Below are positions 4,922 to 43,868 of a stretch of 64,000 nucleotides of DNA, one piece after another. Source of the DNA: a virus. Taxonomy: Duplodnaviria > Heunggongvirae > Uroviricota > Caudoviricetes. The notes beneath the pieces are model-generated. The model was not told the origin of the DNA and made no database searches. It saw only the letters and a program-made list of their open reading frames with translations. The position numbers and the translations under genes are program-made. The stretch is from the IMG/VR virus record IMGVR_UViG_3300029705_000015; one strand, written 5' to 3'. How positions within the stretch are numbered: the stretch's first letter is position 1; every line of letters starts with the position of its first letter.

Positions 4922-5213
4922 ACAAGAATTTGAAACTGTTAAAACAATAATTTATGCTTGTTCTCATCCTGTTTGGAGCAACGGTATGCGTATTCCTTAT
5001 GCAGATACGGACAGAGTTATTTCTGCGTTAGAGAAGATTTTTGCGGAAGAACTTGGAGTCCGAAAAGAAGAACCGTTGTACCGAATATGGAAAGACCAAG
5101 ACGACGCTAAGCGTGCTCTGGAAGCCGCTGAAGAAGAGAAAGTTGAAAAGGAAGAGAAGTCTTCTGATACGGCTGCTAATTTCTTGATGAGAATACTTGG
5201 AAGGAGTAAATGA
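4914..5213 (+). CDS. hypothetical protein
   Basis: ORF with ATGA start-stop overlap to the upstream gene. Confidence 0.45.
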   Translation: MTKQEFETVKTIIYACSHPVWSNGMRIPYADTDRVISALEKIFAEELGVRKEEPLYRIWKDQDDAKRALEAAEEEKVEKEEKSSDTAANFLMRILGRSK

Positions 5214-5214
5214 T

Positions 5215-5634
5215 ATGATTAAAGTACGAAGAAGTACATTTGAAACCAACAGCTCTTCTACTCATACTATTACAATTGTATCAAGAGAAGAGTATGATGG
5301 CTGGAGAAAAGGAAAGTATCTCTATGATCGTTGGTCTCAAAAACTTGTTCCGGCACGTCAGTTGACCGAGTACGAAAAACGAGATGCAAAGGAACAGTAT
5401 GAAATCAACAGAAAGTCTTACTGGAAAACTTGGGACGAGATGGATGAATATGATCGTGATCAAGTGTATGGTGAGTATACTGCAAAACTGATGGAAGGCA
5501 CTTACAATCTTATGACTGAAAAACAATACGACGAATGGTGTGGTGAACGAGGGATGGAAACCTCTTGTGTATCATACACCACAGCAAGCGGTGACGGTAT
5601 TGTTGCTTTCGGTTACGGTGGATATGATGGTTGA
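5215..5634 (+). CDS. paralog family protein (FETNSSSTH motif), member 4
   Basis: N-terminus MIKVRRSTFETNSSSTHTI. AAGGAG RBS sits 9 nt upstream of the ATG at 5215. Confidence 0.6.
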   Translation: MIKVRRSTFETNSSSTHTITIVSREEYDGWRKGKYLYDRWSQKLVPARQLTEYEKRDAKEQYEINRKSYWKTWDEMDEYDRDQVYGEYTAKLMEGTYNLMTEKQYDEWCGERGMETSCVSYTTASGDGIVAFGYGGYDG

Positions 5635-5645
5635 GGTAATTATCA

Positions 5646-6017
5646 ATGATCAAGGTAAGACAAAGTGTTTTTGAAACAAACTCAAGCTCAACTCATACAA
5701 TCACTATGTGCACTGAGGACCAGTTCACTAAATGGCAGAAGAATCAGCTTTTCTGGGATAATGACGCAGAGGAACTTGTAGATGAAACTGAAATGCTTGA
5801 AAGCATTGCAAATTCCTGTGGACAATGTAGTGTTGATGAACTGCTTGAAGCTAAAGAGAAAAGCTATCAAGAATATTTGAAAATGTTAGCCGGTTACGAC
5901 TACTACACTCGCAGTTCGTTCATTGAATTGAATACATATGAGCATTTCAGTAAAAAGTATACATCGCCTTCTGGAGACATTGTTTATGCATTCGGATGGT
6001 ATGGAAGTAACTATTAA
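5646..6017 (+). CDS. paralog family protein (FETNSSSTH motif), member 5
   Basis: N-terminus MIKVRQSVFETNSSSTHTI. Confidence 0.6.
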   Translation: MIKVRQSVFETNSSSTHTITMCTEDQFTKWQKNQLFWDNDAEELVDETEMLESIANSCGQCSVDELLEAKEKSYQEYLKMLAGYDYYTRSSFIELNTYEHFSKKYTSPSGDIVYAFGWYGSNY

Positions 6018-6026
6018 GGAGCAAAA

Positions 6027-6554
6027 ATGACAAAGTTTATCTGTATTTCAGGTAAAGCACAGAATGGAAAAGACACAAGTGCAAGACTTCTGTGCAGTTA
6101 TTTGGAACAAAAAGGAAACAGAGTGCTTATTGTGCATTATGCAGATCTGTTGAAATATATCTGTAGAAATTGGTTTGGATGGAACGGCGAAAAGGATAAC
6201 TTCGGACGAACTCTTTTACAGAAAGTTGGAACTGATGTTGTTAGAAACAAGCGTCCTGACTTCTGGGTAGATTTCATCCTTGATGTGGTAAACTTGTTTG
6301 AAAACGAGTGGGATTACATCATAATTCCTGACACAAGATTTCCGAATGAGCTGTACAAGATCAAGGAAAGTGGATATCCTATGACGCACATTCGTGTTGT
6401 TCGGAAAGACTTTGAAAGCCCTCTATCAGCTGAACAGCAAGCTCATGCTTCAGAAGTGGCACTTGACAATGAGGTTCCCGATATTCTTCTTGTAAACGAA
6501 GGAACACTTGATAAGTTAAATAGTGCAATTGTTGAGATTGTTAAACAACTGTAA
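6027..6554 (+). CDS. deoxynucleoside monophosphate kinase (T4 gp1/T5-like dNMP kinase)
   Basis: P-loop ISGKAQNGKDT and the overall pattern match phage dNMP kinases. Confidence 0.65.
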   Translation: MTKFICISGKAQNGKDTSARLLCSYLEQKGNRVLIVHYADLLKYICRNWFGWNGEKDNFGRTLLQKVGTDVVRNKRPDFWVDFILDVVNLFENEWDYIIIPDTRFPNELYKIKESGYPMTHIRVVRKDFESPLSAEQQAHASEVALDNEVPDILLVNEGTLDKLNSAIVEIVKQL

Positions 6555-6561
6555 AGAAAAT

Positions 6562-6596
6562 AAGACAGATCAAGTTGATTGATCTGTCTTTTCTTA
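6562..6596 (+). terminator. rho-independent terminator
   Basis: Perfect inverted repeat AAGACAGATC/GATCTGTCTT followed by a T-rich tail. Confidence 0.65.
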
Positions 6597-6603
6597 TTAT
6601 AAT
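6575..6603 (+). promoter_or_regulatory. sigma70-like promoter (TTGATT-17-TATAAT)
   Basis: Conserved motif sitting in the terminator loop. Confidence 0.45.
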
Positions 6604-6639
6604 AATGTTGTAAAATAAAAGAAGAGGAAGTGATTTCGC

Positions 6640-6963
6640 ATGAAGAAGTCTCATGTCGTTATCTATCAGATTAAGAACGTTGCTGAAGTTGACTATGCGT
6701 TCAGAAGCTTTGACAGGACAAAGTTCCGTTTCAGCGACTATCAGAAGGTTTATGAAATGGATGTCGAGCCTGGCTTCTATGTAGACATTCTGGAAAATCT
6801 TTTCAGTCTGTTTAATCGTCCTGACTTGCGCCCGAAGGATTTCACAGGTCATTCGATGAGTGTTTCTGACGTTGTTGTCATTGACGGTAAAGGTTACTAT
6901 TGCGATGCGTTCGCTTGGTCCAACATGGGGGATATGAATGAAGTCATTAAAAACTGTCCTTGA
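6640..6963 (+). CDS. YodL-like domain protein (tentative)
   Basis: ~107 aa with the pattern VVIYQ...VYEMD...FNRPDLRPKDFTGHSMSVSDVVVIDG, which resembles the YodL-like family recalled from polyvalent-protein and ICE contexts. Assignment is from memory. Confidence 0.4.
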   Translation: MKKSHVVIYQIKNVAEVDYAFRSFDRTKFRFSDYQKVYEMDVEPGFYVDILENLFSLFNRPDLRPKDFTGHSMSVSDVVVIDGKGYYCDAFAWSNMGDMNEVIKNCP

Positions 6964-7234
6964 CCGCATGAAGGAGCAGAATATTGCTCTTGAAGACAAT
7001 GAAAAGATTGTAATTCCTGTTGACGAGTTCTATGTCGAATTACACGGTGAAACTCGCTTTGGTAGAATCTTCCCGAAGGAAGGAATCATTGTTACGCTAC
7101 TTCCTTGTGAAGATGGCAACTCAGAAACAGGTTCCATCAATCTTCCGTATATCTGGAAGATCAAGAATGTATATGAAACATGGCTCAGTAGCGGTTCTAT
7201 TGCTTACCGCACTGAATTCTACGTTGTTGAATAA
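6938..7234 (+). CDS. hypothetical protein
   Basis: ORF overlapping the upstream gene's end. Confidence 0.4.
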   Translation: MKSLKTVLDRMKEQNIALEDNEKIVIPVDEFYVELHGETRFGRIFPKEGIIVTLLPCEDGNSETGSINLPYIWKIKNVYETWLSSGSIAYRTEFYVVE

Positions 7235-7248
7235 GGAGTTGATTCATT

Positions 7249-8160
7249 TTGAGCAAGTGGGTACATTATCGTAACGGCAACTACAACGTTCATATCAATC
7301 TAAGTGACGGAACTAAGATTCGGGAAAACGAGCTGGATTGCCTTATTCCCGAGTATCCAGAAAGTATGGACATCAAGATTACCAACAAGTGCAATATGGG
7401 CTGCAAGTTCTGTCATGAGAATTCCACTCTTGACGGTTTGCACGGTGACATCATGAATCTTGAATTCATTGATACATTGCAACCTTACACTGAGCTTGCT
7501 ATTGGCGGAGGTAATCCTCTTGAACATCCTGACTTGGAGGCATTTCTGAGAAAGTGTCAGGAATTGTTCTTAATTCCGAGTATGACTGTGCATCAGAAGC
7601 ACTTTCTGGAGAACATTGACTTTCTCCGAATGCTTCGTGACGAAAAGTTGATCTATGGTTTGGGAGTGTCCGTAAACTCTCCTACTCAGGAAGTTATTGA
7701 TGCATTGAAGGAATTTCCGAATGCAGTAGTTCATGTTATTGCCGGTATTGTAACTTACACTGACCTTGCTGCTCTTGCAGATAATAATTTGAAGATCTTG
7801 CTGTTAGGCTACAAGGATTTTAGACGTGGTGAGGCTCTTCACAAGAGTGTTGGTCAAGCAATTGACGATAAGATTCAAATGCTCTATGATCTACTTCCTA
7901 CAATGAAAGACAAGCATTGGTTCAACACCATCAGCTTTGACAACCTGGCAATCAAACAATTGACTCCTGCAAGACTTCTTTCCGAAGAAGAGTATGACCA
8001 ATTCTACATGGGGGACGATGGAAGTCATACTATGTACGTGGACTGTGTCAACAAGAAGTTTGCAATCAGTTCCACTTCTCCTGTTACATATGACATCCTG
8101 CCCAATATCAAAGATATGTTTGCTAAGGTTCGTGAGGTAAGCGGTCATGATCAGTCTTAA
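7249..8160 (+). CDS. radical SAM domain protein
   Basis: CNMGCKFC (CxxxCxxC) cluster near the N-terminus. TTG start with an AAGGAG RBS. Confidence 0.6.
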   Translation: MSKWVHYRNGNYNVHINLSDGTKIRENELDCLIPEYPESMDIKITNKCNMGCKFCHENSTLDGLHGDIMNLEFIDTLQPYTELAIGGGNPLEHPDLEAFLRKCQELFLIPSMTVHQKHFLENIDFLRMLRDEKLIYGLGVSVNSPTQEVIDALKEFPNAVVHVIAGIVTYTDLAALADNNLKILLLGYKDFRRGEALHKSVGQAIDDKIQMLYDLLPTMKDKHWFNTISFDNLAIKQLTPARLLSEEEYDQFYMGDDGSHTMYVDCVNKKFAISSTSPVTYDILPNIKDMFAKVREVSGHDQS

Positions 8161-8566
8161 ATCATTTGAGCAAATAACAGCTGCTCTTCTGAAATATCAC
8201 AGAGAGCTTCGTGATCTTGAGAACAACTTGAATGTTTCATTTGACGATAACTGGATGGTTCATATTATGGACAATGTTATCAAAGGGCTTTCTTGTTCTT
8301 TTCATGAGGATAAAGACTTTGAAGGGTTTTGCTACAACGAGCTAACCTCAGCACAAGTCTCAAAGATCAATGAGTTCTTACAATACTTTGTATATGCGTG
8401 GGAATGTGGCGAGGAGCCTCCTGCTTGGATTGTATACGAAAGATACAATGTTCTTGAGGGTCCCTTGAAGCTAGAATGCCGTTGTCAGTATGATGCATAC
8501 GAAATCATTAAAGACTTCCTTGAGCATCCTCAAGACGATATTACATGGAGGCTTGAAGACATATGA
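8147..8566 (+). CDS. hypothetical protein
   Basis: ORF with a start overlap to the upstream gene. Confidence 0.45.
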   Translation: MISLKSFEQITAALLKYHRELRDLENNLNVSFDDNWMVHIMDNVIKGLSCSFHEDKDFEGFCYNELTSAQVSKINEFLQYFVYAWECGEEPPAWIVYERYNVLEGPLKLECRCQYDAYEIIKDFLEHPQDDITWRLEDI

Positions 8567-12535: not shown

Positions 12536-12542
12536 TATGATT

Positions 12543-12660
12543 GAAGCAGTTATATCAGTTACTTCAAAAGATGATCAAAACAGCCGTCGAACGACGTGAA
12601 GGTTCAAGTCCTTCTCTGCTTCTAATGGAAGCAGATGGTGGAATAGGTAGACACAGCAGT
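12543..12660 (+). ncRNA. Y-RNA-like tRNA mimic (YrlA-type permuted tRNA-like module)
   Basis: Motif TGAAGCAG-N6-CAGTTACTTC, shared with the repeats downstream of the TROVE gene. It is followed by a T-arm GAAGG-TTCAAGT-CCTTC, an acceptor-like hairpin TCTGCTTC-TAATG-GAAGCAGA and a D-arm-like TGGTGGAATAGGTAGACAC, in the order T-arm, closed acceptor hairpin, D-arm. Confidence 0.45.
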
Positions 12661-12701
12661 CCATAAATCACTGATATTGCACATTCTCAATCATTACATA
12701 T

Positions 12702-23321: not shown

Positions 23322-23458
23322 GGCCCAATGGTGGAATTGGTAGACACAAGGGACTTGTTGGATGCCAGTGCTAATCGAGTAGGGGCAGCACCTACATCCG
23401 ACACCAAAAATCCCTCGCTGGAGACAGCGTACCGGTTCGAGTCCGGTTTGGGCCACCA
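23322..23458 (+). tRNA. type II tRNA (Ser-TGA or Leu-TAA like) with a ~50-nt structured insertion in the anticodon loop
   Basis: Acceptor GGCCCAA/TTGGGCC-A-CCA, D-arm and anticodon stem AGGGA/TCCCT. The loop region 23354-23410 is 57 nt and has an internal helix TTGGATG...CATCCGA. Variable arm CGCTG-GAGA-CAGCG and T-arm ACCGG-TTCGAGT-CCGGT follow. Confidence 0.5.
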
Positions 23459-23472: not shown

Positions 23473-24393
23473 ATGAGTACAAAAGAAGATTATAACTTAT
23501 CTAGACCAAGAATTGCGTGTCCTCATTGTGGTCGAGGAATAACAAAAGCTTGTTATGATCGGCATGTTTCAGTTTGTTTGAAAAATCAGTCACAGATCCA
23601 AAGAGAGTCTTACAAGTTAGATCATGATGGTTTGAATTGTAAGTTCTGTGGAAAGTTGTGCAAGAGCACAAACAGTTTGATACAACACGAAATCCGATGT
23701 AAAGATAATCCCCATAGGAATTGTCATACCGCTTTGCAAGATCATGTTGCTAACAATGTTAGAGGTCAAACAAAGCATACATCTTTGCAGATACGGAAAC
23801 AAAGTGAGCGCTTACAAGATCTGTATGCAAGTGGTGAGCTTATTCCTGCAAGTAAAGGAAAGCCTGGAAGCTTTTCCGGATGTAAACACAGCATAGAAAC
23901 AAAACGCAAGATTGGAGAACATGTTTCTGCGTCACGAAAAGCAGGATATGCTTCAGGTAGAATAACACCAGCAAAGGGTGTTGGTTGTGGTAAGTATTCT
24001 TACATACAGTACAAAGACAGAACGTACATGTTGCGAAGCACATACGAGTTCATCTATGCGCTGTATCTTTTGAAGAACGGTATTGAATTTGAACTGGAAG
24101 CTATTCGAGTTCCAGCAACAAATTCTTCTACTGTTTCAAACTCAACATTCATTTCAGATTTTAGTTACGATAACAAGGTTGTAGAAATCAAGGGAATTCC
24201 AAGCGAAAAAGACTCATGTATAAAAGATGCATTTGAGTCCGCTGGATATACATTTGTAGAACTATTTGAATCTGATATCGCTATCTATAAAGAGTGGCTG
24301 AAATCAAACAATATTCCTATCGATGAATTACTAGTTAAAATCAAAGATCATCATGACAAGAAAGACTATTTTGTCTTCACATTTGATAACTAG
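23473..24393 (+). CDS. homing endonuclease-like protein (zinc finger, NUMOD3 motifs, PD-(D/E)xK-like C-terminal domain)
   Basis: CPHCG/CKFCG fingers, the NUMOD3-like CKHSIETKRKIGEH, and a C-terminal STYEFIYALYL...VVEIKG. Paralogous to 25060 and 31871. Ends at TAG. Confidence 0.6.
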   Translation: MSTKEDYNLSRPRIACPHCGRGITKACYDRHVSVCLKNQSQIQRESYKLDHDGLNCKFCGKLCKSTNSLIQHEIRCKDNPHRNCHTALQDHVANNVRGQTKHTSLQIRKQSERLQDLYASGELIPASKGKPGSFSGCKHSIETKRKIGEHVSASRKAGYASGRITPAKGVGCGKYSYIQYKDRTYMLRSTYEFIYALYLLKNGIEFELEAIRVPATNSSTVSNSTFISDFSYDNKVVEIKGIPSEKDSCIKDAFESAGYTFVELFESDIAIYKEWLKSNNIPIDELLVKIKDHHDKKDYFVFTFDN

Positions 24394-25059: not shown

Positions 25060-25731
25060 ATGTACATTTGCCCATTTTGTAACAAAGAATGCAAAAATCA
25101 AAACAGTTTAACAAATCATAAACGATTTTGTAAACTCAATCCAGACCATATTATTATGCCACCTCATAGGAAAGGCATTCCTTCATGGAATAGTGGCTTG
25201 ACAAGCAAAGATGATTCTAGAATTCTTTGTGGTTCAGAATTATCAGATGCAGTTAAACAGGGAATGATGAATTCTAATTATATCCCAACAGGACGAGCTT
25301 CAACCGATGAGAAAGAACAACTAAGAAGACAAAAGTTGTCCGTGGTAGCAAAAGAAAGAAACTTGGGTGGATATGTTCCAGGCTCTGGAAGAGGCAAGAA
25401 GGGTTGGTATAAAGGATTTTTCTGCGATTCTACATATGAGTTAGTTTATGTAATCTTCAATCTTGATAACGGTATACCATTCAAGAAATGTCAGAAAGTT
25501 TATCAATATCTGATTGATGGTGAAACTCATAACTATCATCCTGATTTTGAATTAGCAGATGGGACGCTTGTTGAGATAAAAGGTTATCATAACAGTCTTG
25601 TTGATATAAAAGCTGCATCTGTTGTAGATACAAAAATTGACATTCTTTATGAGTCAGACTTGAAGTATGCATTTGACTGGGTTGAAAGTCATTATGAATA
25701 CAAAGAATTATCTGACTTATATGAAAAATAA
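25060..25731 (+). CDS. homing endonuclease-like protein (zinc finger, NUMOD3, PD-(D/E)xK)
   Basis: CPFCNKECKN finger, the NUMOD3-like SWNSGLTSKDDSR, and a C-terminal YHPDFELADGTLVEIKG (PD...EIK) motif. Confidence 0.6.
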   Translation: MYICPFCNKECKNQNSLTNHKRFCKLNPDHIIMPPHRKGIPSWNSGLTSKDDSRILCGSELSDAVKQGMMNSNYIPTGRASTDEKEQLRRQKLSVVAKERNLGGYVPGSGRGKKGWYKGFFCDSTYELVYVIFNLDNGIPFKKCQKVYQYLIDGETHNYHPDFELADGTLVEIKGYHNSLVDIKAASVVDTKIDILYESDLKYAFDWVESHYEYKELSDLYEK

Positions 25732-25860: not shown

Positions 25861-25889
25861 TTGAAGTTATTTACATTCTATCATATAAT
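25861..25889 (+). promoter_or_regulatory. sigma70-like promoter (TTGAAG-17-TATAAT)
   Basis: Conserved motif upstream of the TROVE gene. Confidence 0.45.
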
Positions 25890-25941
25890 ATGGATGTAAA
25901 CGATAGATAAATTCTTAGATGATTACAAGGAGATGACCTGT

Positions 25942-27603
25942 ATGAGCAAATTGTCTAATGCAGCAATGGAAATGCGTGAAGAGGCAACTCTGCGCAGAGA
26001 CGAAACCGTCGTCAATTTTATGGGTGGTGACTCTTATGTTATCAACCCTCTGGACACCTTGAAGATGATTACCGCGTCTTCTATTTATGGTGAGCCTTCC
26101 TATTATCGGGATAGTGCTAGCGCAAAGAAGACTTGCGGTAAATACACTCTGGATAGTCGGTATGTTACTGACTCTGTTATTCCTTCCGAGTATGAAGGTA
26201 AGCAGACCAATGTGGTTATGGAGGAGGCAATTGATGCCGCTCTGAACTACGATTTTGCAGGAACTTTGCAGTGGGCAATTGAATTGCGTAATGAGTTCAA
26301 TATGCGCTTGAATCCTCAGGTAATCATGGTTCGGGCTGCCCTGCATCCGAAGCGTGCTGAGTTTACTGCAGCAAATCCTGGTGAGTTTGATAAGATCAAT
26401 CAGCAGGTGATGTCTCGTGCCGATGAGCCGATGACTCAGATGGCTTACTACTTGTACAAGAACAAGGGCAAGAAGAACAACATTCCTTCTGTTATTAAGC
26501 GCTCTTGGGCAACTAAGCTGAGTAAGCTCGGCAGATATCCTGTTGCTAAGTACAAGAATCATGAAATCGGCATGATCAATGCGGTTCGTTTGTGTCATGC
26601 AAACTCAGCTGTCATTGATGAACTGATGACTTCTGGCACTGTTGAGGTGTCTGAAGATAAGAAGACTTGGGAGAATCTTCGCTCCGAAGGCAAGTCTTGG
26701 AAGGAAATTTTCCAGACTGTTGATATGGGTCACATGGCTCTACTTCGTAACCTGCGCGGTGTATTCAGCGAGGTAGACGATGTAGCATTCTGTAAGGAAT
26801 ATCTGGATAAGCTGAAGGCTGGTGTTCTTACCGGCAAACAGTTCCCGTTCCGTTACTATGCAGCAATGAATGCTGTTAACAGCAGTAGCAAGTGCAATCA
26901 TCGTTCTATGATCATTGATGCTCTGGAGGAGTGCTTTGACATTGCTCTTGAGAACTATCCTAAGTTAAAGGGCAAGACGATGTGTCTGTCTGATAACTCC
27001 GGGTCTGCTTGGGGCACAATGAACTCTGAGTATGGCACTGTTACAATTGCAGAAATTGACAACTTGTCTTCCGTTATTACTGCAGCTTGCTCCGAAGATG
27101 GTTATGTTGGTGAATTTGGTGACAGACTCATTGTTCATCCTGTTAGCAAGCGTCAGGGCGTCCTGAATCAAGCCAAGCAGATCTCTATGGATCGCGGTCG
27201 TAAGGTTGGTGGTTCCACCGAGGGTGGTATCTGGGAGTTCTTCTACAATGCTATCCAGAACAAGGAACATTGGGATAACATCTTCATCTACTCTGACCAG
27301 CAAGCAGGCCATGGTGGTTTGTATGGTACTTCCACTCAGTCTGCTAAGTACTCCAAGGCAGGATTCGGCTGCGGTAGTGCATGGGGTGGCAACTACATCA
27401 ACGTGTATAAGTTGATCCTGGAGTACCGTAAGAAGGTTAATCCTCATGTTAACGTCTTCTCTATTCAGACTGCAGGTTATGATAACATTGTAATTCCTGA
27501 AATGGCTTATCGTACTGCTATTCAGTATGGTTGGACCGGCAAGGAAGCGGTGTTTGCCTCTGAATACATTCGTCAGTGGAATGACATTGAAAACCGTAAC
27601 TAA
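25942..27603 (+). CDS. Ro60/Rsr-like TROVE domain protein with a C-terminal vWA domain
   Basis: The N-terminal VNFMGGDSYVINPLDTLKMITASSIYGEPSYY matches the Ro60/Rsr N-terminal pattern. The C-terminal MIDAS motif CLSDNSGSAWG indicates a vWA domain. AAGGAG RBS lies 9 nt before the ATG at 25942. Confidence 0.7.
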   Translation: MSKLSNAAMEMREEATLRRDETVVNFMGGDSYVINPLDTLKMITASSIYGEPSYYRDSASAKKTCGKYTLDSRYVTDSVIPSEYEGKQTNVVMEEAIDAALNYDFAGTLQWAIELRNEFNMRLNPQVIMVRAALHPKRAEFTAANPGEFDKINQQVMSRADEPMTQMAYYLYKNKGKKNNIPSVIKRSWATKLSKLGRYPVAKYKNHEIGMINAVRLCHANSAVIDELMTSGTVEVSEDKKTWENLRSEGKSWKEIFQTVDMGHMALLRNLRGVFSEVDDVAFCKEYLDKLKAGVLTGKQFPFRYYAAMNAVNSSSKCNHRSMIIDALEECFDIALENYPKLKGKTMCLSDNSGSAWGTMNSEYGTVTIAEIDNLSSVITAACSEDGYVGEFGDRLIVHPVSKRQGVLNQAKQISMDRGRKVGGSTEGGIWEFFYNAIQNKEHWDNIFIYSDQQAGHGGLYGTSTQSAKYSKAGFGCGSAWGGNYINVYKLILEYRKKVNPHVNVFSIQTAGYDNIVIPEMAYRTAIQYGWTGKEAVFASEYIRQWNDIENRN

Positions 27604-27739
27604 CTAAAGTAGATGGCTGAAGCGGCCGTAACAGTTCCTTCAAAAATAACATCTTACATACTCTACAAATGTTTTCTTTTGAACTCTTTTATAACTTCAC
27701 CTCCTGTTATAAATCCATTTTTTCAAACTGTTACATTTC

Positions 27740-28227
27740 ATTCTCAGCCTTTACATAGATAAACTAGATACTACGATTGTTGATGCAGTTGGTCCAGTTA
27801 CTTCGGATAATAAATTTTACTGTCAAACAAAATTTTAGTTGGTTCAAATCCAACAACGTCTATTGCGGGCGTAAGTGCTTATGCTGGAACAGTATTTCTC
27901 AACAATCTTTGAAAACATAGTTTGCTGATGCAGCTGAAAGAGTTACTTCAAATTTGACTGTTAATCAAAAACTTGAGACCACATATCTCTTTCCTTTATT
28001 CTCAGCTTCTATATAACAATAAAATATCATTTGTGATGCAGTCGAATCAGTTACTTCTTGCTTAGGGAGCACGGGGTCGTGGGTTCGAGTCCCACCTGTT
28101 CGTTTAAGCAGCGACAGTAGCTCAGTCGGGAGAGCACGTACAATAGTATTCACTGGTTCATTTATTCTCACAAATTGTTATTGTATAATATATCATATGT
28201 TTCGATGCGGTAGTTCGAGATACTTCA
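27740..28227 (+). repeat. array of four direct repeats (TGATGCAG-N6-9-(C)AGTTACTTC) with tRNA-like arms; candidate Y-RNA (YrlA-like) genes
   Basis: Repeats lie at 27781-27805, 27926-27949, 28034-28057 and 28203-28227. Each is preceded by TTATTCTCA. T-arm-like GTTGG-TTCAAAT-CCAAC sits at 27838-27854 and GTGGG-TTCGAGT-CCCAC at 28079-28095. A hairpin and a D-arm-like GCGACAGTAGCTCAGTCGGGAGAGCAC follow at 28111-28137. Confidence 0.45.
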
Positions 28228-28284
28228 ACATTGTTTTTCTGGATGTACTTAAGACCTTGAACAATTGTTCTCGAAACATCTTAT

Positions 28285-28362
28285 GGGCCCGTAGCTCAGT
28301 TTTGGGAGAGCATCTGATTTGCACTCAGAAGGTCAGGAGTTCGAGCCTCCTCGGGTCCACCA
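28285..28362 (+). tRNA. tRNA-Ala(TGC): tRNA-Ala (anticodon TGC)
   Basis: Acceptor GGGCCCG/CGGGTCC with the G3:U70 Ala identity pair, anticodon arm TCTGA-TTTGCAC-TCAGA and CCA. Confidence 0.75.
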
Positions 28363-28746
28363 GCTTACTCGAGTAAGACGCTTGTCAGTCAAGTGGTGGA
28401 ACATCTGATGGTTGACGCTGTAAAAGTTAAATGCGTTCGAGTGCGGAGCGAAGGTTGGTCGCCGCATAAACATAAATTGTATATAAAGATATAAGATATT
28501 ATGAAAGGGTTATGCGCCATGTTTGAACTTAGATTTGAACTCAATATGGATAATGGTGGATACCCTCATTATGATATTTTTAACAATCGTTGTGAAAGAA
28601 TAACATCACATGTATTGCGAATAACTTGAATGTACAGTATATATAACTGATCAGCATTGAGTGTTCGCAAGAATATTCAATGCTTTTATTTTTAGTTGAT
28701 AATTCCTTGTGCATATTATAACATATGTATATAGAATAATAGATAT

Positions 28747-28822
28747 TCCCCTATAGCTCAGTTGGTAGAGCGGCGGACTGTTAATCCGTGTGTCGCAGGT
28801 TCGAGCCCTGCTGGGGGAGCCA
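28747..28822 (+). tRNA. tRNA-Asn(GTT): tRNA-Asn (anticodon GTT)
   Basis: Acceptor TCCCCTA/TGGGGGA, anticodon arm CGGA-CTGTTAA-TCCG, TTCGAGC T-loop and CCA. Confidence 0.7.
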
Positions 28823-31870: not shown

Positions 31871-32569
31871 ATGGAGCATATTTATATGAGCGAAGAAACT
31901 AAGTTTCAGTGTGAATACTGTAATAAAATATGCAAAAATGCTAATAGTTTAGCACAGCATCAGATAAGATGTTCTTCAAATCCAAATAGAATTCACTCTT
32001 CCTTTGTTGCTGGTTTTAATACAAAAGGAAGACAAGCTTGGAATACTGGGCGTACAAAAGAAACAGATGAGCGTGTGGCAAAACAAGCGGAACAACAACG
32101 CAAGTTTTATGAAACACATCCTGGAACATTTACAGGAAAGACTCATACTGAAACATATAAGTTAATGATGAGTGAACTTGCTCATGAACGAGGCCTTGGT
32201 GGGTTCAATATGAGAAGCAAGGGCATTCATTATCATGGATCAAAATTAGATTCAACTTATGAGCTAGCTGTTGCTCAGTCTCTTGATGAAAACAGTATTG
32301 TTTGGGAGAGACCAAAATCATTTACATATGTTGGATTTGATAACAAACAACATAGATATGTCCCTGATTTCTATCTTCCAGATTATGACATTTATCTTGA
32401 TCCGAAAAATGATTTTCTAATCAACAATGTTAATCCTGGTCTTGGTTACAATGACTGTGACAAGATTAAACTTGTTGAACATCAGTTGGGAATTAGAGTC
32501 TTAATTCTTGATTCAGAGCATCTTACATGGGACAAGATAAAATCTAAGATTGATGCCGAAGTCCCATAG
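31871..32569 (+). CDS. homing endonuclease-like protein (zinc finger, NUMOD3, PD-(D/E)xK)
   Basis: CEYCNKICKN finger, NUMOD3-like AWNTGRTKETDERV and GKTHTETYKLMMSE motifs, and a C-terminal YVPDFYLPDYDIYLDPK. Ends at TAG. An alternative start is the ATG at 31886. Confidence 0.6.
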   Translation: MEHIYMSEETKFQCEYCNKICKNANSLAQHQIRCSSNPNRIHSSFVAGFNTKGRQAWNTGRTKETDERVAKQAEQQRKFYETHPGTFTGKTHTETYKLMMSELAHERGLGGFNMRSKGIHYHGSKLDSTYELAVAQSLDENSIVWERPKSFTYVGFDNKQHRYVPDFYLPDYDIYLDPKNDFLINNVNPGLGYNDCDKIKLVEHQLGIRVLILDSEHLTWDKIKSKIDAEVP

Positions 32570-32640: not shown

Positions 32641-33379
32641 TAAAAATTGAATCTTGACAAGTGCATAGTAAAATATATAATCATTGACAACTCAGTGCAG
32701 AACGAATACCATCGTGCTGAGAACTCGATCCTGCCTGCGGGCGCCTGGAATGCGAAAAACATTCACGAACGATAGCTTGTGATAGCTAGAGGGTTTATGG
32801 AGTGATTCATAGATTCCGCCTCTGAACTGAGGTCCAGGATGGAAGGGTGTGCTGACATAGTTGTAATCAAAGATACCGTCTTATCGCTCCCACAATAGAC
32901 AGCTTGGTTAACAGCCGAGCCGAATCCAAGTTAGGTATTAGCTGGTGACTGTTACAAACCTTGGAAAGACCAACAAGGAAGTTTGCGTTGATCCCTCAGC
33001 AATGAGGAGTATAAGATAAGGTCGGAGGTGCGAGTAGCTCAAACGCAATTGACGTAAGATGATGCTGTAAAGAACTTGGATAGTAATAGAAAAAGTTACT
33101 AATATTATCAAAATTTCTGAATGGCGAGTGAAAGTTGCAAGTACCCAATCTTGCATGGGATTTGGAATTACTAGTTGAGAATTTACCGAGTAATCGGTAT
33201 CAGGTCCTATGTTAATTCTGGGGCAAGAAGTTTATGGTGGACGCATCATAGGCTCAGACTTGTCTCCCCATTGATCGAATATGGTTGAGGACTAAACAGT
33301 TGGTAAGGCGAAGGCCTGTTGATGAACTTATATATTTTACTATGTGCTTGTCTGAGTGTTTTTCATTCCTCCTTTCGTG

Positions 33380-39009: not shown

Positions 39010-39480
39010 TTGAAATTATTCATTCTGTTCACAGTACTAACAACACTCAATGTTATCTTAAGTACTGTTAAATCACTTGTTACAATAAAGTGCGGCAAAT
39101 TCATCGCCGCACTTGTTAATGCTCTTGCCTATGGACTCAATACAGTAGCTATTATTTACACAGTTTGTGATCTTCCGTTGTGGCTGAAAGTGCTGGTTGT
39201 TGCTATAACGAACTTCATTGGTGTATTTATTGTAAAGTGGATTGAAGAAAAATCCCGAAAAGAAAAACTTTGGAAGATTGAATGTACAATCCCTTACAGC
39301 AGATATGAAACACTCCACTACAATCTCGATAATCATTTCTTACCACATAATTATATATTACTTGGCGAGAAGTATGCAGTGTTCAATATCTACTGTTCAA
39401 CAAAATTTGACACAGCGATCGCGTACAAGCTACTCAAAGATGCGGACGCTAGATACTTTGTTAGCGAAACAAGAGAATAG
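39010..39480 (+). CDS. membrane protein (TTG start)
   Basis: Several hydrophobic segments. Ends at TAG. Confidence 0.4.
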   Translation: MKLFILFTVLTTLNVILSTVKSLVTIKCGKFIAALVNALAYGLNTVAIIYTVCDLPLWLKVLVVAITNFIGVFIVKWIEEKSRKEKLWKIECTIPYSRYETLHYNLDNHFLPHNYILLGEKYAVFNIYCSTKFDTAIAYKLLKDADARYFVSETRE

Positions 39481-40603: not shown

Positions 40604-42478
40604 ATGATTGTGAGTAAGGAATATACTTCCGAATCAATTCAAGTGCTCGACGACATTGCACATATGCAATTGCGTAGAGGCATGTATATTGGTGAGGCTA
40701 ATGATCCTCGTCAGTTGTTGTCAGAAGTATTTGATAATGCAATTGATGAAGTTCAGGCAGGCTTCAGCGATGAGCTGATTGTCACAATTGACACAGCTAC
40801 AAACAAGTACAGTGTAAGAGACTTTGGTCGTGGTATTCCTCATGGCAAGAAGACTCTTGAAAACGGAACCCAGAAAGAGATTCTGGAAATTTTGATCACG
40901 AAAGCAAACAGTGGTGGTAAGTTTGATAATTCCTCATACAACTACTCCTCCGGCTTGAATGGTCTTGGTCTTACAATTACCAATGCGCTTTCCAATGAAA
41001 TTCATCTGGCATCTTATCGTGATGGTGCTGTTGTTGAAGCAAGAGCTTACGGCAGTACTGTTGTGGATCTTGCATATGAACTTGGCAGTACTGAACGCAA
41101 CGGTACTCTGGTTGAGTTTATCCCGAATCCGAAGATGTTCCACAGTAAGAAGATTCCTGTTGACTTCATTCGTGACCGCTGTCGTGTAGCAAGTGCGCTT
41201 GGTTTTAGAGCAAGACTGATTGTTGATGGAGTTGAGCAGAAAACAGATGCAAGTATGTTTGACCTCATCAAAGAAGAAAATGACAAGGTTAGTATCTATG
41301 TGAATGTACAGCCTATCGAAGTTGTTGCAACCACAGCTGAAAAGATGAAGGTTGCTCTGCGATACACTTCCGAAACAAATGACCGATATTTCGGTTATAC
41401 CAATCTGTTAAGCAACTACCTTGGCGGAACTCATGTTCAGGAGCTTTCAAAGACAATCATTACAGCTTGGAAGGAATTCATTGAGAGCCACAAAAACATC
41501 AAGCCTTCTGTGGAACTTCACAACAACGACTTCTTGATTGGTCTCCGTGGTGTGTGTGCGGTATTCATTGCACATCCTGAATTCTCTTCCCAGACAAAGG
41601 AAAAGCTCGTTGTTAACAGAAAGTACTTTGAGGAACTAATGGGCTTGTTTAAGTCTCAGTTCTCTCGTTATCTTGAAGAGAATGTTCTCATTGCACAGCA
41701 GCTTATTAAGCGCTTTGAAGAATATCGTGTTGCTCAGAACAATCTGCTTTCCAGAAAAGAAATTAGCTCGTTGATTAAAGTAAACAACGATGGTGAAGAC
41801 AACATTCGTAGAAGGTCCGTTGTATCTAAGCTCGTTGAGTGTACTTCCCGCAAGCGTAAAGACACTGAGCTGTTTATTGTGGAGGGTGACTCTGCGAAGG
41901 GTCCGTATATGTTTACACGTAACAAAGAGCTGCAAGCAGTGCTACCTCTTAGAGGTAAGATCTTAAATGTTACCTACAAGTCCATCAAGGATGCAGTTAA
42001 GAACGCAGAAATTTGTGATATTGCAAATAGTATGGGTTGTGGCATCGGTGGCGCTTGTGATGCAAATAAATCACGATATGAGCGTGTAATCATTTCAGCT
42101 GATGCTGACCCTGATGGATTGCAGATTAACTGTTTGGTACTCTCAGTATTTATCAATCTGTTTCCTGATATGGTTAAACAAGGTAGGGTATTTGTGTCAA
42201 TGCCTCCGTTGTACTGCTGGGGTGACAATCCAAAAAACTACGGCTGGTGTAACAAAGTTGAGGACATTCCTGCTGGTGTAAAGAATGTGCATCGTTTCAA
42301 GGGCTTGGGTGAAATGAATGATGATCAGCTTGAGTACTTCTTAGTTAATCCTGAAACTCGAAACCTTATGCAGATTCAGTATCCTTCTGATGTAGAAGAG
42401 TTCAACAGAATTCTTGGTACTTCAGCAGGTAAGAATGATCTGCTGAAAGAACTCGGAATTGTTGAGAAGGGAGAGTAA
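40604..42478 (+). CDS. type II DNA topoisomerase ATPase/TOPRIM subunit (GyrB / T4 gp39-like)
   Basis: GHKL ATPase motifs (RRGMYIGEANDPRQLLSEVFDNAIDE) and TOPRIM FIVEGDSAKGP. GTG start with an AAGGAG RBS. Confidence 0.8.
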   Translation: MIVSKEYTSESIQVLDDIAHMQLRRGMYIGEANDPRQLLSEVFDNAIDEVQAGFSDELIVTIDTATNKYSVRDFGRGIPHGKKTLENGTQKEILEILITKANSGGKFDNSSYNYSSGLNGLGLTITNALSNEIHLASYRDGAVVEARAYGSTVVDLAYELGSTERNGTLVEFIPNPKMFHSKKIPVDFIRDRCRVASALGFRARLIVDGVEQKTDASMFDLIKEENDKVSIYVNVQPIEVVATTAEKMKVALRYTSETNDRYFGYTNLLSNYLGGTHVQELSKTIITAWKEFIESHKNIKPSVELHNNDFLIGLRGVCAVFIAHPEFSSQTKEKLVVNRKYFEELMGLFKSQFSRYLEENVLIAQQLIKRFEEYRVAQNNLLSRKEISSLIKVNNDGEDNIRRRSVVSKLVECTSRKRKDTELFIVEGDSAKGPYMFTRNKELQAVLPLRGKILNVTYKSIKDAVKNAEICDIANSMGCGIGGACDANKSRYERVIISADADPDGLQINCLVLSVFINLFPDMVKQGRVFVSMPPLYCWGDNPKNYGWCNKVEDIPAGVKNVHRFKGLGEMNDDQLEYFLVNPETRNLMQIQYPSDVEEFNRILGTSAGKNDLLKELGIVEKGE

Positions 42479-42479
42479 C

Positions 42480-43868
42480 ATGAAAGATTTCATTACTACT
42501 GATGCTTGTGAGCTTGCCAAGACTAACTATACTGAATACTCTCAGTATGTTGCTCAAGGTCGTAGTTATCCTTCCATCTATGATGGTGCTAAGAGCAGCT
42601 ACAAGAGAGCAATCTATGGTATGTACACCAACAAGACAAGCAAGACTGTTAAGGTTGCGGAGCTTGCTGCTCATGCTCTTCCTTATCATCCGCACCCTAC
42701 TTCAGTTGCAGGTGTTATCATTCAGTTGGGAGATGGCGGTAACAAGTTAAAGCTGATGGACACTCAAGGCAACTGGGGCAACAGTGCTAGACACATTGAA
42801 GCGTCTGCAGAAAGATACATTGGCGGCAAGCTTTCTGCTTTGGCTGAGCATCTGTTGTGTGACTCCATTGAGTACTGCAAATTTGTTCCTGGAGAGATTG
42901 ATAAGGACGAACCGCTTGCTCTTCCTGCATTGATTCCTCTGTGCTTCATTAACGGTAATAGTGGTATTCCCTCAGGACTTCCTACGTTGAATATTCCCAC
43001 AATTGACATCATTGGAATGATTGATTACTACCTTGATATCCTTGCTCACAAAGATGTTGAATACAAGCCTAAGAAGCATCCGAAGCCTAACTTAGAAATC
43101 AATGTGCTGTCTAGTATCGAGGATTGGAATGCTGTTCTCGAAACCGGTAAGGGCAGCATTCGAACTGCTCCTATCATGGAGATTGATTCTTCCAATGTTA
43201 TCACAATTACGGGTTTACCTAAGACAAAGACTGTTGATCATGTTCGCAAGATTGTTGAAAAAGAAATCCTTCTTGACAAGATTGATGTTCGAGATGAGAC
43301 AGCTGAAACTATTCGGATTGTTATTGAGAAGGTTCCTCATAAACAGTGTGACATGAAGGAACTGTTCAAGAGACTCTACACAAAGCTGCAGTCCTCCGAA
43401 ACCTATAACTTGGCATTCTTCGATGAAGAAAAGATCTATGTACCTTGTAGCTTCCACAAAGTTATCAGAACCAACTTACAATATGTTATTGATACACATC
43501 GTAATCGGTTGGTAAAGGAAATGGTTCAGCTGAATATCCGACTCCGTGTCCTGCAAATCATCGAGGACATGAAGAAAAAGAACAGCTTGAAGAGTTTGTT
43601 TGACCTGGATAACAAGGCTGCGTTAAGTCACATTTGTACCACATATAAATGTGATGAAGATATTGCAAGCAAAGTGCTGCAGAAACCCATTTCTTATTTA
43701 ACAAAGGAACACGGTCAGGAACTTGTTGACTTGATGGCAGCAATTGATGAGAATGTCACTAATCAAAGTGACATTTATGAGTTCATGACTAAGAAATACA
43801 AGGCGCTAAAGAAAGAGCTGACTCCTATTCTCAAGAATAAGTTTGCTCCGACAACCTTCATTAAATGA
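42480..43868 (+). CDS. type II DNA topoisomerase cleavage-religation subunit (GyrA/ParC N-terminal-like, T4 gp52-like)
   Basis: YSQYVAQGRSYPSIYDGAKSSYKRAIYGMY resembles the GyrA N-terminal region. AAGGGAGAG RBS before the ATG at 42480. Confidence 0.7.
   Translation: MKDFITTDACELAKTNYTEYSQYVAQGRSYPSIYDGAKSSYKRAIYGMYTNKTSKTVKVAELAAHALPYHPHPTSVAGVIIQLGDGGNKLKLMDTQGNWGNSARHIEASAERYIGGKLSALAEHLLCDSIEYCKFVPGEIDKDEPLALPALIPLCFINGNSGIPSGLPTLNIPTIDIIGMIDYYLDILAHKDVEYKPKKHPKPNLEINVLSSIEDWNAVLETGKGSIRTAPIMEIDSSNVITITGLPKTKTVDHVRKIVEKEILLDKIDVRDETAETIRIVIEKVPHKQCDMKELFKRLYTKLQSSETYNLAFFDEEKIYVPCSFHKVIRTNLQYVIDTHRNRLVKEMVQLNIRLRVLQIIEDMKKKNSLKSLFDLDNKAALSHICTTYKCDEDIASKVLQKPISYLTKEHGQELVDLMAAIDENVTNQSDIYEFMTKKYKALKKELTPILKNKFAPTTFIK

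What the first reader, a model, noticed from the sequence alone, without database searches (positions are those of the whole stretch)
25942..28284. Phage-encoded Ro60 (TROVE-vWA) protein followed by an array of tRNA-mimic repeats: candidate Ro-Y RNA system
The 556-aa protein at 25942-27603 carries the Ro60/Rsr N-terminal signature and a C-terminal vWA MIDAS motif (see feature). The 680 bp immediately downstream are ORF-free and hold four direct repeats (TGATGCAG-N6-9-(C)AGTTACTTC), each preceded by TTATTCTCA. Two tRNA-like modules are arranged T-arm, hairpin, D-arm (for example 28079-28137). Bacterial Y RNAs of the YrlA type sit next to rsr and contain exactly such a permuted tRNA-like domain. 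R1 also contains AGTTGGTCCAG, resembling the GGUCCGA Ro-binding helix of metazoan Y RNAs. This looks like a Ro60 orthologue with multiple Y-RNA-like genes.
Basis: partly seen in the sequence, partly recalled or inferred. Interest (0 to 1): 0.85.

Follow-up and report, generated by a model that had tools for sequence, protein, structure and literature searches.

The report
Phage Ro60 gene with Y-RNA array
A large uncultured gut phage encodes a Ro60-type RNA-binding ring protein, followed directly by five small structured RNAs (a sixth lies among its tRNA genes) that share one conserved stem and carry different tRNA-like tips; this kind of system is already known in phages, but this is a distinct, highly modular version.

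Summary
ORF 25942-27603 (553 aa) is a divergent Ro60/Rsr orthologue. Its predicted structure matches only Ro60 structures at significant level (Thermus phage phiLo, D. radiodurans, human, Xenopus), and it has an invariant DxSxS MIDAS motif.

The 680 nt downstream hold five tandem RNA units, not four. A sixth sits at 12537-12694 between two tRNAs. Every unit has the same stem:
- helix P1;
- internal loop 5' GA(U/A)GC(A/G)G / 3' AUUCUC;
- helix P2;
- 5' AGUUACUUC.

Both helices covary strongly across about 130 non-redundant units from about 150 related phage loci. These include Bacillus phage G and a Bacillus toyonensis contig.

The tips differ. U3 and U0 carry a YrlA-type permuted tRNA-like domain, U1 a T-arm, U2 an anticodon-arm mimic, and Ua and U4 plain hairpins.

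Complete units occur essentially only in contigs that encode this Ro60 lineage.

Two details of the finding are wrong. The "GGUCCGA-like" stretch is a variable helix strand. "TTATTCTCA" is the 3' end of the preceding unit.

Phage Ro60 with Y RNA-like RNAs has been known since 2014 and was studied biochemically in 2025. This is therefore a new variant of a known kind. Ro60 binding and function remain inferred.

The parts
25861..25889 (+). Sigma-70-like promoter candidate (TTGAAG-17-TATAAT) upstream of the Ro60 gene. No terminator-like hairpin follows until 28653-28684. The gene, the five RNA units and tRNA-Ala may therefore form one transcript (inference).
   Evidence: Consensus match only; the number of such sites in the region does not exceed shuffles.
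25942..27603 (+). Ro60/Rsr orthologue, 553 aa. It has a HEAT-repeat (TROVE) ring of about residues 30-340 and a vWA domain of about 340-553. The MIDAS residues are D351-x-S353-x-S355, T426 and D452.
27615..27749 (+). Unit Ua. P1 is GGCU/AGCC, the 5' loop is GAAGCGG, and P2 is CCGUAACAG/CUGUUAC. The second motif is AGUUCCUUC (degenerate) and the 3' motif is AUUCUC. The tip shows no tRNA-like feature.
27775..27907 (+). Unit U1. P1 is 7 bp (GAUUGUU/AACAAUC) and the 5' loop is GAUGCAG. The tip has a tRNA T-arm (27838-27854), followed by a hairpin and preceded by a degenerate anticodon-arm-like hairpin. That hairpin is intact in relative L070, with loop CUGUCAA.
27924..28006 (+). Unit U2. P1 is short (GCU/AGC). 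The tip is an anticodon-arm-like hairpin at 27953-27969 (UUUGA-CUGUUAA-UCAAA). Its stem changes are compensatory in L070 and L001.
   Evidence: (25.4 bits, E 5e-5)
28029..28175 (+). Unit U3. It is YrlA-like, with T-arm 28079-28095, acceptor-like hairpin 28096-28117 and D-arm 28120-28135. P1 is AUUUGU/ACAAAU and P2 is GAAUCAG/CUGGUUC.
28197..28279 (+). Unit U4. P1 is 7 bp (AUGUUUC/GAAACAU). The motifs are GAUGCGG ... AGAUACUUC ... GUUCUC. The tip is a plain hairpin. The unit ends 5 nt before tRNA-Ala (28285-28362).
   Evidence: 25.2 bits, E 5e-5
12537..12694 (+). Unit U0, the distal copy. It lies between tRNA-Pro (ends 12535) and tRNA-Trp (starts 12702). The motifs are GAAGCAG ... AGUUACUUC ... 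AUUCUC. The tip has a T-arm, a hairpin and a class-II-like D-arm; the D-arm was assigned by eye.

Best explanation
The window comes from a large phage of an animal-gut lineage. It encodes a Ro60/Rsr orthologue (TROVE ring plus vWA/MIDAS) and six candidate Y RNAs.

Five of the RNAs lie head to tail directly 3' of the gene and run straight into tRNA-Ala. The sixth sits between two tRNAs 13 kb upstream. They are most likely made as part of tRNA-containing precursors and trimmed by the tRNA-processing nucleases. Spacers to the neighbouring tRNAs are 1-7 nt.

Each RNA pairs its 5' and 3' ends into a conserved bipartite stem:
- P1, about 6 bp;
- an asymmetric internal loop, 5' YGA(U/A)GC(A/G)G / 3' N2-3 AUUCUC;
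- P2, 7-9 bp;
- 5' AGUUACUUC.

This stem has the same topology as the Ro60-binding stem of YrlA: a 6-bp helix, a 5-nt/8-nt loop and a 7-bp helix. Its 5' loop resembles YrlA's CGAAUGC. I take it to be the docking site for the phage Ro60.

The tip is an interchangeable effector module. It can be a permuted tRNA-like domain, a T-arm, an anticodon-arm mimic or a plain hairpin.

By analogy with D. radiodurans, S. Typhimurium and Thermus phage phiLo, the RNAs would tether or gate Ro60 towards partner proteins such as PNPase or tRNA-binding enzymes. This would redirect RNA decay, repair or quality control during infection.

Shown here: the protein fold, the RNA family, its helices and the genomic linkage. 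Inferred: transcription and processing, Ro60 binding, and function.
For: Protein.
- PHROG 850 'RNA-binding protein', E 8e-44, full length.
- Most homologues carry PF05731.
- The AF2 model has pLDDT 82.7 and pTM 0.83.
- The Foldseek top 13 hits are all Ro60: 9kop/9l5y phiLo with target-normalised TM-score (TMt) 0.77/0.72, then 2nvo, 9nen, 1yvp. vWA proteins follow.
- D351/S353/S355/T426/D452 are invariant in 40 homologues.

RNA.
- The 5' motif occurs 5 times in the window vs 0.09 expected.
- It occurs 322 times on the + strand vs 2 on the - strand across the loci.
- MFE folds recover P1 and P2 in all six window units.
- On 130 non-redundant units, 85% of cells are paired vs 51% in shuffles and 33-41% in slid controls. 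There are 807 double-change cells vs 288.
- In a test unbiased by pairing, the partner was located only by the string ATTCTC. P1 gave 5.30/6 pairs vs 2.95+-0.11. P2 gave 7.43/9 vs 5.33+-0.09.
- Compensatory changes appear even among relatives whose Ro60 is 94-98% identical.

Linkage.
- 17/17 loci with Ro60 >=66% identical have units within 1.5 kb downstream.
- An IMG/VR-wide scan for the exact 5' motif returned 94 loci. 19 hold complete units, and 14 of those show the Ro60 gene in the excerpt. None of the 75 incomplete (chance-level) matches does.
- The same units flank gp540 of Bacillus phage G and a Bacillus toyonensis TROVE gene.

YrlA likeness.
- RF02553 gives 30.5 bits, E 2.5e-4, for U3.
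- It gives 29-42 bits for 12 units in 8 loci.
- That is the same range as the published YrlAs of CcrColossus.

Literature.
- YrlA-like RNAs lie next to Ro60 in 22 phages (PMC4201824).
- The phiLo Ro60 binds two adjacent Y-like RNAs and host PNPase (PMC12135203).
- Y RNAs are modular: a Ro60-binding stem plus an effector module (bioRxiv 10.1101/312249).
Against: - No expression, processing or binding data exist for any member of this family.
- The window protein misses Pfam's TROVE gathering score (19.7 vs 23 bits).
- It has no sequence-level hit to Xenopus or Deinococcus Ro60.
- The YrlA match is far below Rfam's gathering score (30.5 vs 69). In most related units it covers only the tRNA-like core, model positions 23-86.
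- The published Ro60-binding motif GNCGAAN0-1G is not present as such. CGAAG occurs at the P1/loop junction in only 15 of 130 units, and YGAWG in 123 of 130.
- Units also occur kilobases away from the Ro60 gene among tRNAs (U0). Proximity is therefore not absolute.
- No PNPase or RtcB gene was found among the 20 larger ORFs of the window that were scanned against Pfam or PHROGs.
Confidence: 0.78

Rival explanations
1. The units are autonomous tRNA-mimic decoys or regulators. Examples would be sponges for host anticodon nucleases, tRNA-modifying enzymes or RNase P. In this reading the conserved stem serves stability or processing, or binds another factor. The Ro60 gene is then merely a frequent neighbour within the phage's tRNA region.
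For: - Units occur inside tRNA clusters away from the Ro60 gene (U0 at 12537-12694; upstream copies in L117, L120, L049).
- Tips include anticodon-arm mimics. 60 of 186 hairpins have the YU-NNN-RN loop vs 15+-3.7 expected. This hairpin precedes the T-arm in 31 of 32 units that have both, and in 22 of those 31 the spacer is the tRNA-like 4-5 nt.
- Some tips are whole native-order tRNA-like inserts.
Against: - Complete units were found only in contigs of this Ro60 lineage.
- The stem has the topology of the known Ro60-binding stem of YrlA (consensus).
- Units without any tRNA-like tip (Ua, U4, most phage G units) keep the stem fully conserved. This points to the stem as the functional constant.
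Confidence: 0.12
2. The repeats are cis-acting processing or insulator elements of the polycistronic tRNA/Ro60 transcript, such as RNase III or RNase E entry sites. They would have no trans-acting function of their own.
For: - Packing is tight: spacers between units and to the neighbouring tRNAs are 1-29 nt (parts list).
- No terminator separates the gene, the units and tRNA-Ala.
- P1 plus P2 forms a long interrupted duplex.
Against: - Sequence conservation sits in the single-stranded internal loops and on the 5' strand rather than in duplex shape.
- The elaborate tRNA-like tips, with conserved T- and D-loops, are unnecessary for a cleavage site.
- Several units stand side by side with nothing to separate.
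Confidence: 0.06
3. The region consists of decayed tRNA pseudogenes or chance repeats.
For: - The region lies in a tRNA-rich part of the genome with 22-24 tRNAs.
- Fragments of tRNA arms are present.
Against: - The non-tRNA stem is conserved, with covarying helices, across phages whose Ro60 is only 35-60% identical.
- Strand specificity is 322:2.
- The motif is enriched 5 vs 0.09.
Confidence: 0.02

Closest known systems
YrlA (Rfam RF02553) with Rsr/Ro60 of bacteria and phages (Chen et al. [quoted passage not shown]
   Same: - The RNAs lie on the same strand within a few hundred nt of a Ro60 gene.
- The 5' and 3' ends form a two-helix stem with an asymmetric internal loop.
- The tip of U3 (and of U0) is a permuted tRNA-like domain in the order T-arm, acceptor-like hairpin, D-arm.
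- Several Y-like RNAs per locus occur here too. CcrColossus shows three YrlA hits upstream of its Ro60.
   Different: - Scores are only 29-42 bits against a gathering score of 69.
- The stem sequence is different: YGAWGCRG / AUUCUC / AGUUACUUC instead of GNCGAAN0-1G.
- Most units of this family have no D-arm or no tRNA-like part at all.
- Some carry an extra anticodon arm or a native-order tRNA-like insert.
- There are up to 7 units per locus.
Thermus phage phiLo Ro60 with Yrl1/Yrl2 (PMC12135203; PDB 9KOP, 9L5Y)
   Same: - It is the best structural match of the predicted protein (TM-score normalised to target length 0.77).
- It is the only sequence-level PDB hit (E 2e-6).
- It is phage-encoded, with adjacent Y-like RNAs whose end-paired stem flanks a large internal bulge (the tips were not compared here).
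- It gives an experimentally supported model: binding of the Y-like RNAs and of host PNPase.
   Different: - Identity is 16-17% over the structural alignment.
- phiLo has two RNAs upstream of the gene, identified by a CGAA motif.
- Here five units lie downstream and carry a different conserved motif.
- The host and phage type are different.
Bacillus phage G gp540 and its Y RNA-like RNA (cited in PMC12135203 from Chen et al. 2014)
   Same: - It is the closest cultured relative, at 54% amino-acid identity over 99% of the protein.
- The same stem family is present in 7 copies around gp540, again in a tRNA region.
- One copy is YrlA-like (36 bits).
   Different: - The units lie mostly upstream of the gene.
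- The motifs are GA(A/U)GCGG and A(A/U)AUCUC.
- As far as I could read, only a Y RNA-like RNA of phage G has been mentioned. The supplement of Chen et al. 2014 is not held, so I could not check which RNA.
Metazoan Y RNAs (Rfam Y_RNA) with Ro60
   Same: - The modular logic is shared: a Ro60-binding stem formed by the RNA ends plus a variable effector loop.
- Several paralogous Y RNAs exist per genome.
   Different: - There is no sequence or covariance-model match.
- The GGUCCGA-like string in U1 lies in a variable helix strand.

Membership tests
Ro60 / Rsr (TROVE + vWA) proteins | TROVE (HEAT-repeat ring) domain | tested here: met
   - The window protein itself scores 19.7 bits on PF05731, below the cut-off of 23.
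- Most close homologues carry PF05731.
- PHROG 850 matches at E 8e-44.
- The AF2 model (pLDDT 82.7) aligns over about 510-600 columns to all solved Ro60 structures, E 3e-14 to 5e-10, target-normalised TM-score (TMt) 0.51-0.77.
Ro60 / Rsr (TROVE + vWA) proteins | C-terminal von Willebrand factor A domain with MIDAS (DxSxS...T...D) | tested here: met
   - D351-N-S353-G-S355, T426 and D452 are invariant in 40 homologues.
- The model has an alternating strand/helix C-terminal domain.
- After the Ro60 hits, the next Foldseek hits are vWA-domain proteins.
Ro60 / Rsr (TROVE + vWA) proteins | Binds Y RNAs on the outer surface and misfolded RNA ends in the central hole | not testable with these tools
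   This needs EMSA, RIP or a structure.
YrlA (Rfam RF02553) | Score at or above the curated gathering threshold (69 bits) | tested here: not met
   - U3 scores 30.5 bits, E 2.5e-4.
- U0 gets no YrlA hit.
- The published phage YrlAs of CcrColossus also score only 30-42 bits here. The threshold is therefore conservative for phage members.
YrlA (Rfam RF02553) | tRNA-like domain in the order T-arm, acceptor-like hairpin, D-arm, closed by a stem that replaces the anticodon stem | tested here: met
   - In U3 the model aligns over its full length with T-arm 28079-28095, hairpin, D-arm 28120-28135 and a closing ACG/CGU stem.
- The T-arm and hairpin stems covary in L001.
- U0 shows the arrangement by eye only.
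- Ua, U1, U2 and U4 do not have it.
YrlA (Rfam RF02553) | Encoded within about 4 kb of, and on the same strand as, a Ro60 gene | tested here: met
   - Units start 12-594 nt after the stop codon on the + strand.
- 17/17 close loci show the same arrangement.
YrlA (Rfam RF02553) | Ro60-binding stem with the GNCGAAN0-1G motif on the 5' strand (PMC4201824) | tested here: not met
   - The 5' strand reads YGA(U/A)GC(A/G)G.
- CGAAG occurs in 15 of 130 units and in none of the window's units.
- The helix/loop/helix topology is the same, and GAWGC resembles the model's GAAUGC. That similarity is an inference, not a test.
YrlA (Rfam RF02553) | Carries tRNA modifications; substrate of RNase P / CCA-adding enzyme | not testable with these tools
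   Biochemical property.
Metazoan-type Y RNA (Rfam Y_RNA) | Conserved bulged helix GGUCCGA / ...CUUGACC | tested here: not met
   - No Y_RNA match appears at E<=10 over 27550-28750.
- UUGGUCC of U1 is the variable P2 strand. It is UUGGGCC in L001 and unrelated in other units.

The most novel reading that the evidence does not exclude
The conserved stem is a general Ro60-docking handle. This phage lineage uses it to display a library of tRNA look-alikes: whole tRNA-like folds in native or permuted order, anticodon-arm + variable-loop + T-arm halves, and bare anticodon arms with many different 'anticodons' (GUU, UUU, GCA, GAU, GUC ...).

The resulting RNPs would act as decoys or sensors for host tRNA-targeting defences, such as anticodon nucleases, or for tRNA-modifying enzymes. 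They might deliver those enzymes, or cleaved tRNAs, to Ro60-associated nucleases or repair enzymes. This would be an anti-defence function that complements the phage's own large tRNA set.
Probability: 0.15. Interest if true: 0.8.

Novelty: new variant of a known kind. Interest (0 to 1): 0.5.

Why it matters

This lineage offers a large natural experiment. It has hundreds of RNAs with one invariant stem and swapped tips, in arrays next to the protein gene. Members occur in a cultured phage (Bacillus phage G) and in Bacillus cereus-group genomes.

The sharply defined stem motif gives direct mutational targets for mapping Ro60 recognition. The diversity of tips gives baits for finding effectors. 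It also gives a simple signature for annotating non-tRNA-like Y RNAs, which covariance models built on the tRNA-like domain miss.

Tried and rejected
- **Covariance model of the stem.** Model R1 finds the two short units cleanly (25 bits). It mis-pairs the long ones because of the insert penalty. It still ranks all six window units among its top seven hits and finds no further convincing copy. I did not use it for collection-wide statistics.
- **In-silico re-permutation of tips, then ARAGORN.** 11 of 25 constructs were called tRNA, but 9 of 32 native-order units were called too. The test does not discriminate. It did show that some tips are native-order tRNA-like inserts.
- **Motif at 39439** (GATGCGGACGCTAGATAC). 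It has no 3' partner and lies inside ORF 39010-39480. I judge it chance.
- **Megablast of the region against GenBank phages.** No match.
- **Listeria phage P100/CKA15.** Abundant putative Y RNAs near an Rsr-like gene were reported there (PMC12282133). The first 100 kb of P100 show no stem motif and no annotated Ro60. The last 31 kb were not fetched. No expression evidence could be transferred.
- **Papers not held.** Two Wolin-lab reviews (PMC10870794, PMC6047535) and the supplement of Chen et al. 2014 are not held. I could not check which phage G RNA was reported or whether the stem motif was described.
- **Known loop motifs.** Reading the internal loop as a k-turn or loop-E was rejected by inspection. 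There is no tandem G·A signature on the 3' strand.
Full report
**1. Observation**

The ORF exists. The mechanical ORF runs 25933-27603 and gives 556 aa. An AAGGAG box at 25927-25932 sits directly against the first ATG and 9 nt before the ATG at 25942. All close homologues are 552-553 aa and begin MSKLSN. The gene is therefore 25942-27603 and encodes 553 aa.

Downstream, GATGCAG-N7-AGTTACTTC occurs at 27782, 27927 and 28035. It occurs with 2 mismatches at 28204 and with 1 mismatch at 12543. That is five matches against 0.09 expected.

A further degenerate copy (GAAGCGG-N7-AGTTCCTTC) starts at 27619, 16 nt after the stop codon. In relative L001 it has the canonical AGTTACTTC.

The window has 22-24 tRNA genes on the same strand. 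tRNA-Ala follows the array at 28285.

**2. The protein**

Sequence evidence on the window protein alone is weak:
- Pfam TROVE scores 19.7 bits, below the cut-off of 23.
- The only PDB sequence hit is a 'TROVE domain-containing protein', 9KOP/9L5Y, at E 2e-6. A profile improves this to E 4.5e-8.

Other evidence is strong:
- PHROG 850 ('RNA-binding protein') matches the full length at E 8e-44.
- Thousands of metagenomic homologues exist, and most carry PF05731.
- An AlphaFold2 model built on 40 homologues has pLDDT 82.7 and pTM 0.83. It shows an all-helical N-terminal two-thirds and an alternating strand/helix C-terminal third.
- Against the PDB, the 13 significant Foldseek matches are all Ro60: Thermus phage phiLo (TM-score normalised to target length, TMt, 0.77/0.72), D. 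radiodurans Rsr, human and Xenopus Ro60. vWA-domain proteins come next.
- D351-x-S353-x-S355, T426 and D452 are invariant, as expected for a MIDAS site.

The protein is a divergent Ro60 orthologue. The closest cultured relative is gp540 of Bacillus phage G (54% identity), which is annotated as a putative TROVE ribonucleoprotein and lies in a tRNA region.

**3. Anatomy of the repeats**

I fetched 149 loci that encode relatives of the protein. They came from IMG/VR and from metagenomes, including human gut and giraffe samples, with contigs up to 395 kb.

The 5' motif recurs in these loci almost only on the strand of the Ro60 gene: 322 on + against 2 on -. It occurs in arrays.

Laying the copies side by side shows that each repeat is the 5' part of a 60-160-nt unit. 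The layout is:
- helix P1, about 6 bp, immediately flanking the unit;
- 5' loop GA(U/A)GC(A/G)G;
- helix P2, made of a variable 6-8 nt plus AG;
- the conserved AGUUACUUC;
- a variable tip;
- the 3' strand of P2;
- 2-3 nt;
- AUUCUC;
- the 3' strand of P1.

In the window the units are:

| Unit | Coordinates |
|---|---|
| Ua | 27615-27749 |
| U1 | 27775-27907 |
| U2 | 27924-28006 |
| U3 | 28029-28175 |
| U4 | 28197-28279 |
| U0 | 12537-12694 |

Unconstrained MFE folding recovers P1 and P2 in all six.

**4. Are the helices real?**

First test. With 3' partners chosen by a pairing score, 200 units pass a threshold that only 3 pass after shuffling the variable strand and the flank.

Second test. I used 130 non-redundant units with the tip replaced by a fixed linker. 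On these:
- 85% of cells pair, against 51% in column shuffles and 33-41% when partners are slid.
- 807 cells carry changes on both sides, against 288.
- 16 of 17 pairs show double changes.

That alignment is biased, because partners were chosen by pairing. So I repeated the test with the partner located only by the first exact ATTCTC, using 112 units. P1 then forms 5.30 of 6 pairs, against 2.95+-0.11 for permuted partners. P2 forms 7.43 of 9, against 5.33+-0.09.

Independent of any selection, the three bases before CUC are A/U/U in 114/119/111 of 130 units.

Among the window and its 98%- and 94%-identity relatives, the following all change by compensatory substitutions. Indels do not respect reading frames.
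- P2 of U3 and U4
- the T-arm and the hairpin of U3
- the hairpin of U2

**5. Linkage to Ro60**

- All 17 loci whose Ro60 is >=66% identical, and that have enough flank, carry units within 1.5 kb downstream. The mean is 4.2 units and the maximum is 7.
- The strict motif fades with divergence: 32/53 loci at 55-66% identity and 3/26 at 30-45%.
- A scan of all IMG/VR for the exact 5' motif gave 94 loci (the header says 95 stretches; one was the already-held L006). Only 19 hold complete units.
- Fourteen of those 19 show the Ro60 gene inside the excerpt. Two more come from contigs already known to carry it.
- None of the 75 incomplete matches has the gene. That number is about what chance would give for 16 fixed bases.
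- Phage G has seven units around gp540.
- A Bacillus toyonensis contig has four units upstream of its TROVE gene, which is followed by a PARG-like gene.

**6. The tips**

U3 matches Rfam YrlA over the whole model at 30.5 bits, E 2.5e-4. It shows the T-arm, the acceptor-like hairpin and the D-arm.

Twelve units in eight related loci score 29-42 bits. In most of them only the tRNA-like core, model positions 23-86, matches.

These scores are below the gathering score of 69. So are the three YrlA hits of Caulobacter phage CcrColossus (30-42 bits), a phage in which Y RNA-like RNAs have been reported (PMC12135203 citing PMC4201824).

The other window units look like this:
- U0 has a T-arm, a hairpin and a class-II-like D-arm by eye, but no YrlA hit.
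- U1 has a T-arm and a hairpin.
- U2 has a 5-bp/7-nt hairpin with loop CUGUUAA.
- Ua and U4 have plain hairpins.

Across the family:
- 60 of 186 non-T-arm 5-bp/7-nt hairpins have the anticodon-loop signature YU-NNN-RN, against 15+-3.7 expected.
- Where such a hairpin coexists with a T-arm, it precedes it in 31 of 32 units. In 22 of those 31 the spacer is 4-5 nt. This is the layout of a tRNA's anticodon arm, variable loop and T-arm.
- ARAGORN even calls nine units tRNAs in native order.

The stem therefore carries very different tRNA-derived or unrelated tips.

**7. Mechanism**

Established knowledge:
- Y RNAs are modular. A stem made by the RNA ends binds Ro60, mainly through its 5' strand, and a second module binds an effector (bioRxiv 10.1101/312249).
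- Bacterial YrlA RNAs lie next to rsr on the same strand and mimic tRNA (PMC4201824).
- A phage Ro60 binds adjacent Y-like RNAs and host PNPase in vitro (PMC12135203).

The stem found here has the same topology as the YrlA consensus: a 6-bp helix, a 5-nt/8-nt loop and a 7-bp helix. Its conservation is concentrated on the 5' strand. Its YGAWGC resembles YrlA's CGAAUGC. The published GNCGAAN0-1G motif, however, is not met.

I infer that the stem is this lineage's Ro60-binding site and that the tips are effector modules.

A promoter-like site precedes the gene. No terminator-like hairpin occurs before 28653. Spacers to the flanking tRNAs are 1-7 nt. This suggests co-transcription with the gene and the tRNAs, and release by tRNA-processing enzymes. 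All of this is inference.

**8. Comparison and novelty**

Ro60 with YrlA-like RNAs in phages has been known since 2014. Chen et al. listed 22 phages, and phage G is cited among phages with such RNAs. A phage Ro60-Y-like RNP was characterised structurally in 2025.

What I did not find described:
- the distinct stem signature;
- its presence on many non-tRNA-like RNAs that tRNA-domain-based models cannot find;
- the array size;
- the range of tips, including anticodon arms and native-order tRNA-like inserts.

I could not read the 2014 supplement or two reviews, so prior description cannot be excluded.

**Verdict**

It is a new variant of a known kind and of moderate interest.

Noticed in passing
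window 32667-33336 (+): A full-length ROOL RNA (Rfam RF03087, 283 bits, E 7e-64) lies 4.4 kb downstream of the array, directly after tRNA-Thr.
   Followed up: no
window 23322-23455 (+): An Rfam tRNA match (42.8 bits) spans 134 nt and is not called by ARAGORN. It may be a tRNA with a long insertion or intron. tRNA-Trp (92 nt) and tRNA-Ile-tat (95 nt) are also unusually long.
   Followed up: no
window 23473-24393, 25060-25731, 31871-32569 (+): Paralogous ORFs with an N-terminal C2H2-type zinc finger and an endonuclease-I/resolvase-like C-terminus are scattered between the tRNA genes. One lies immediately upstream of the Ro60 gene. They are probably homing-type endonucleases.
   Followed up: partly
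window 28363-28650 (+): About 290 nt lie between tRNA-Ala and a strong terminator-like hairpin (28653-28684). They have no convincing ORF and no Rfam match at E<=10. The content is unexplained.
   Followed up: no
L136 3484, L143 413, L147 605, L009 5648, L130 1738 and others: Some units of the family carry a nearly complete tRNA-like fold in native (unpermuted) order inside the conserved stem. The conserved UUACUUC contributes to the acceptor-like 5' strand. ARAGORN of 32 such units tRNAs.
   Followed up: partly
L246 (Bacillus toyonensis GCA_036216085.1, contig of 745 kb) 5178-5900 and 6001-8560: Four stem units lie upstream of a TROVE gene, which is followed by a PARG-like (PF10021) gene. The family is therefore not confined to free phage genomes. 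A prophage origin was not checked.
   Followed up: partly
L005 6650-6773; L030 1-145; L029 3168-3450: Other structured RNAs occur in related phage loci: DUF3800-I RNA (55.6 bits, above its gathering score), a 5'-truncated GOLLD fragment (36.6 bits), and a weak group I intron match (27 bits).
   Followed up: no
window 12603-12623 within U0: The acceptor-like hairpin of U0 (UCUGCUUC-UAAU-GGAAGCAGA) contains a second copy of the 5' loop motif GAAGCAG and its complement. This allows an alternative pairing with the real 5' motif. Its significance is unknown.
   Followed up: no
window 890-2068, 7249-8160, 40604-43868: The window also encodes adenylosuccinate synthetase, a radical-SAM protein and both subunits of a type II topoisomerase. 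This fits a large (jumbo-type) phage genome. The nearest contig, IMGVR_UViG_3300022753_000036, is 204 kb.
   Followed up: no
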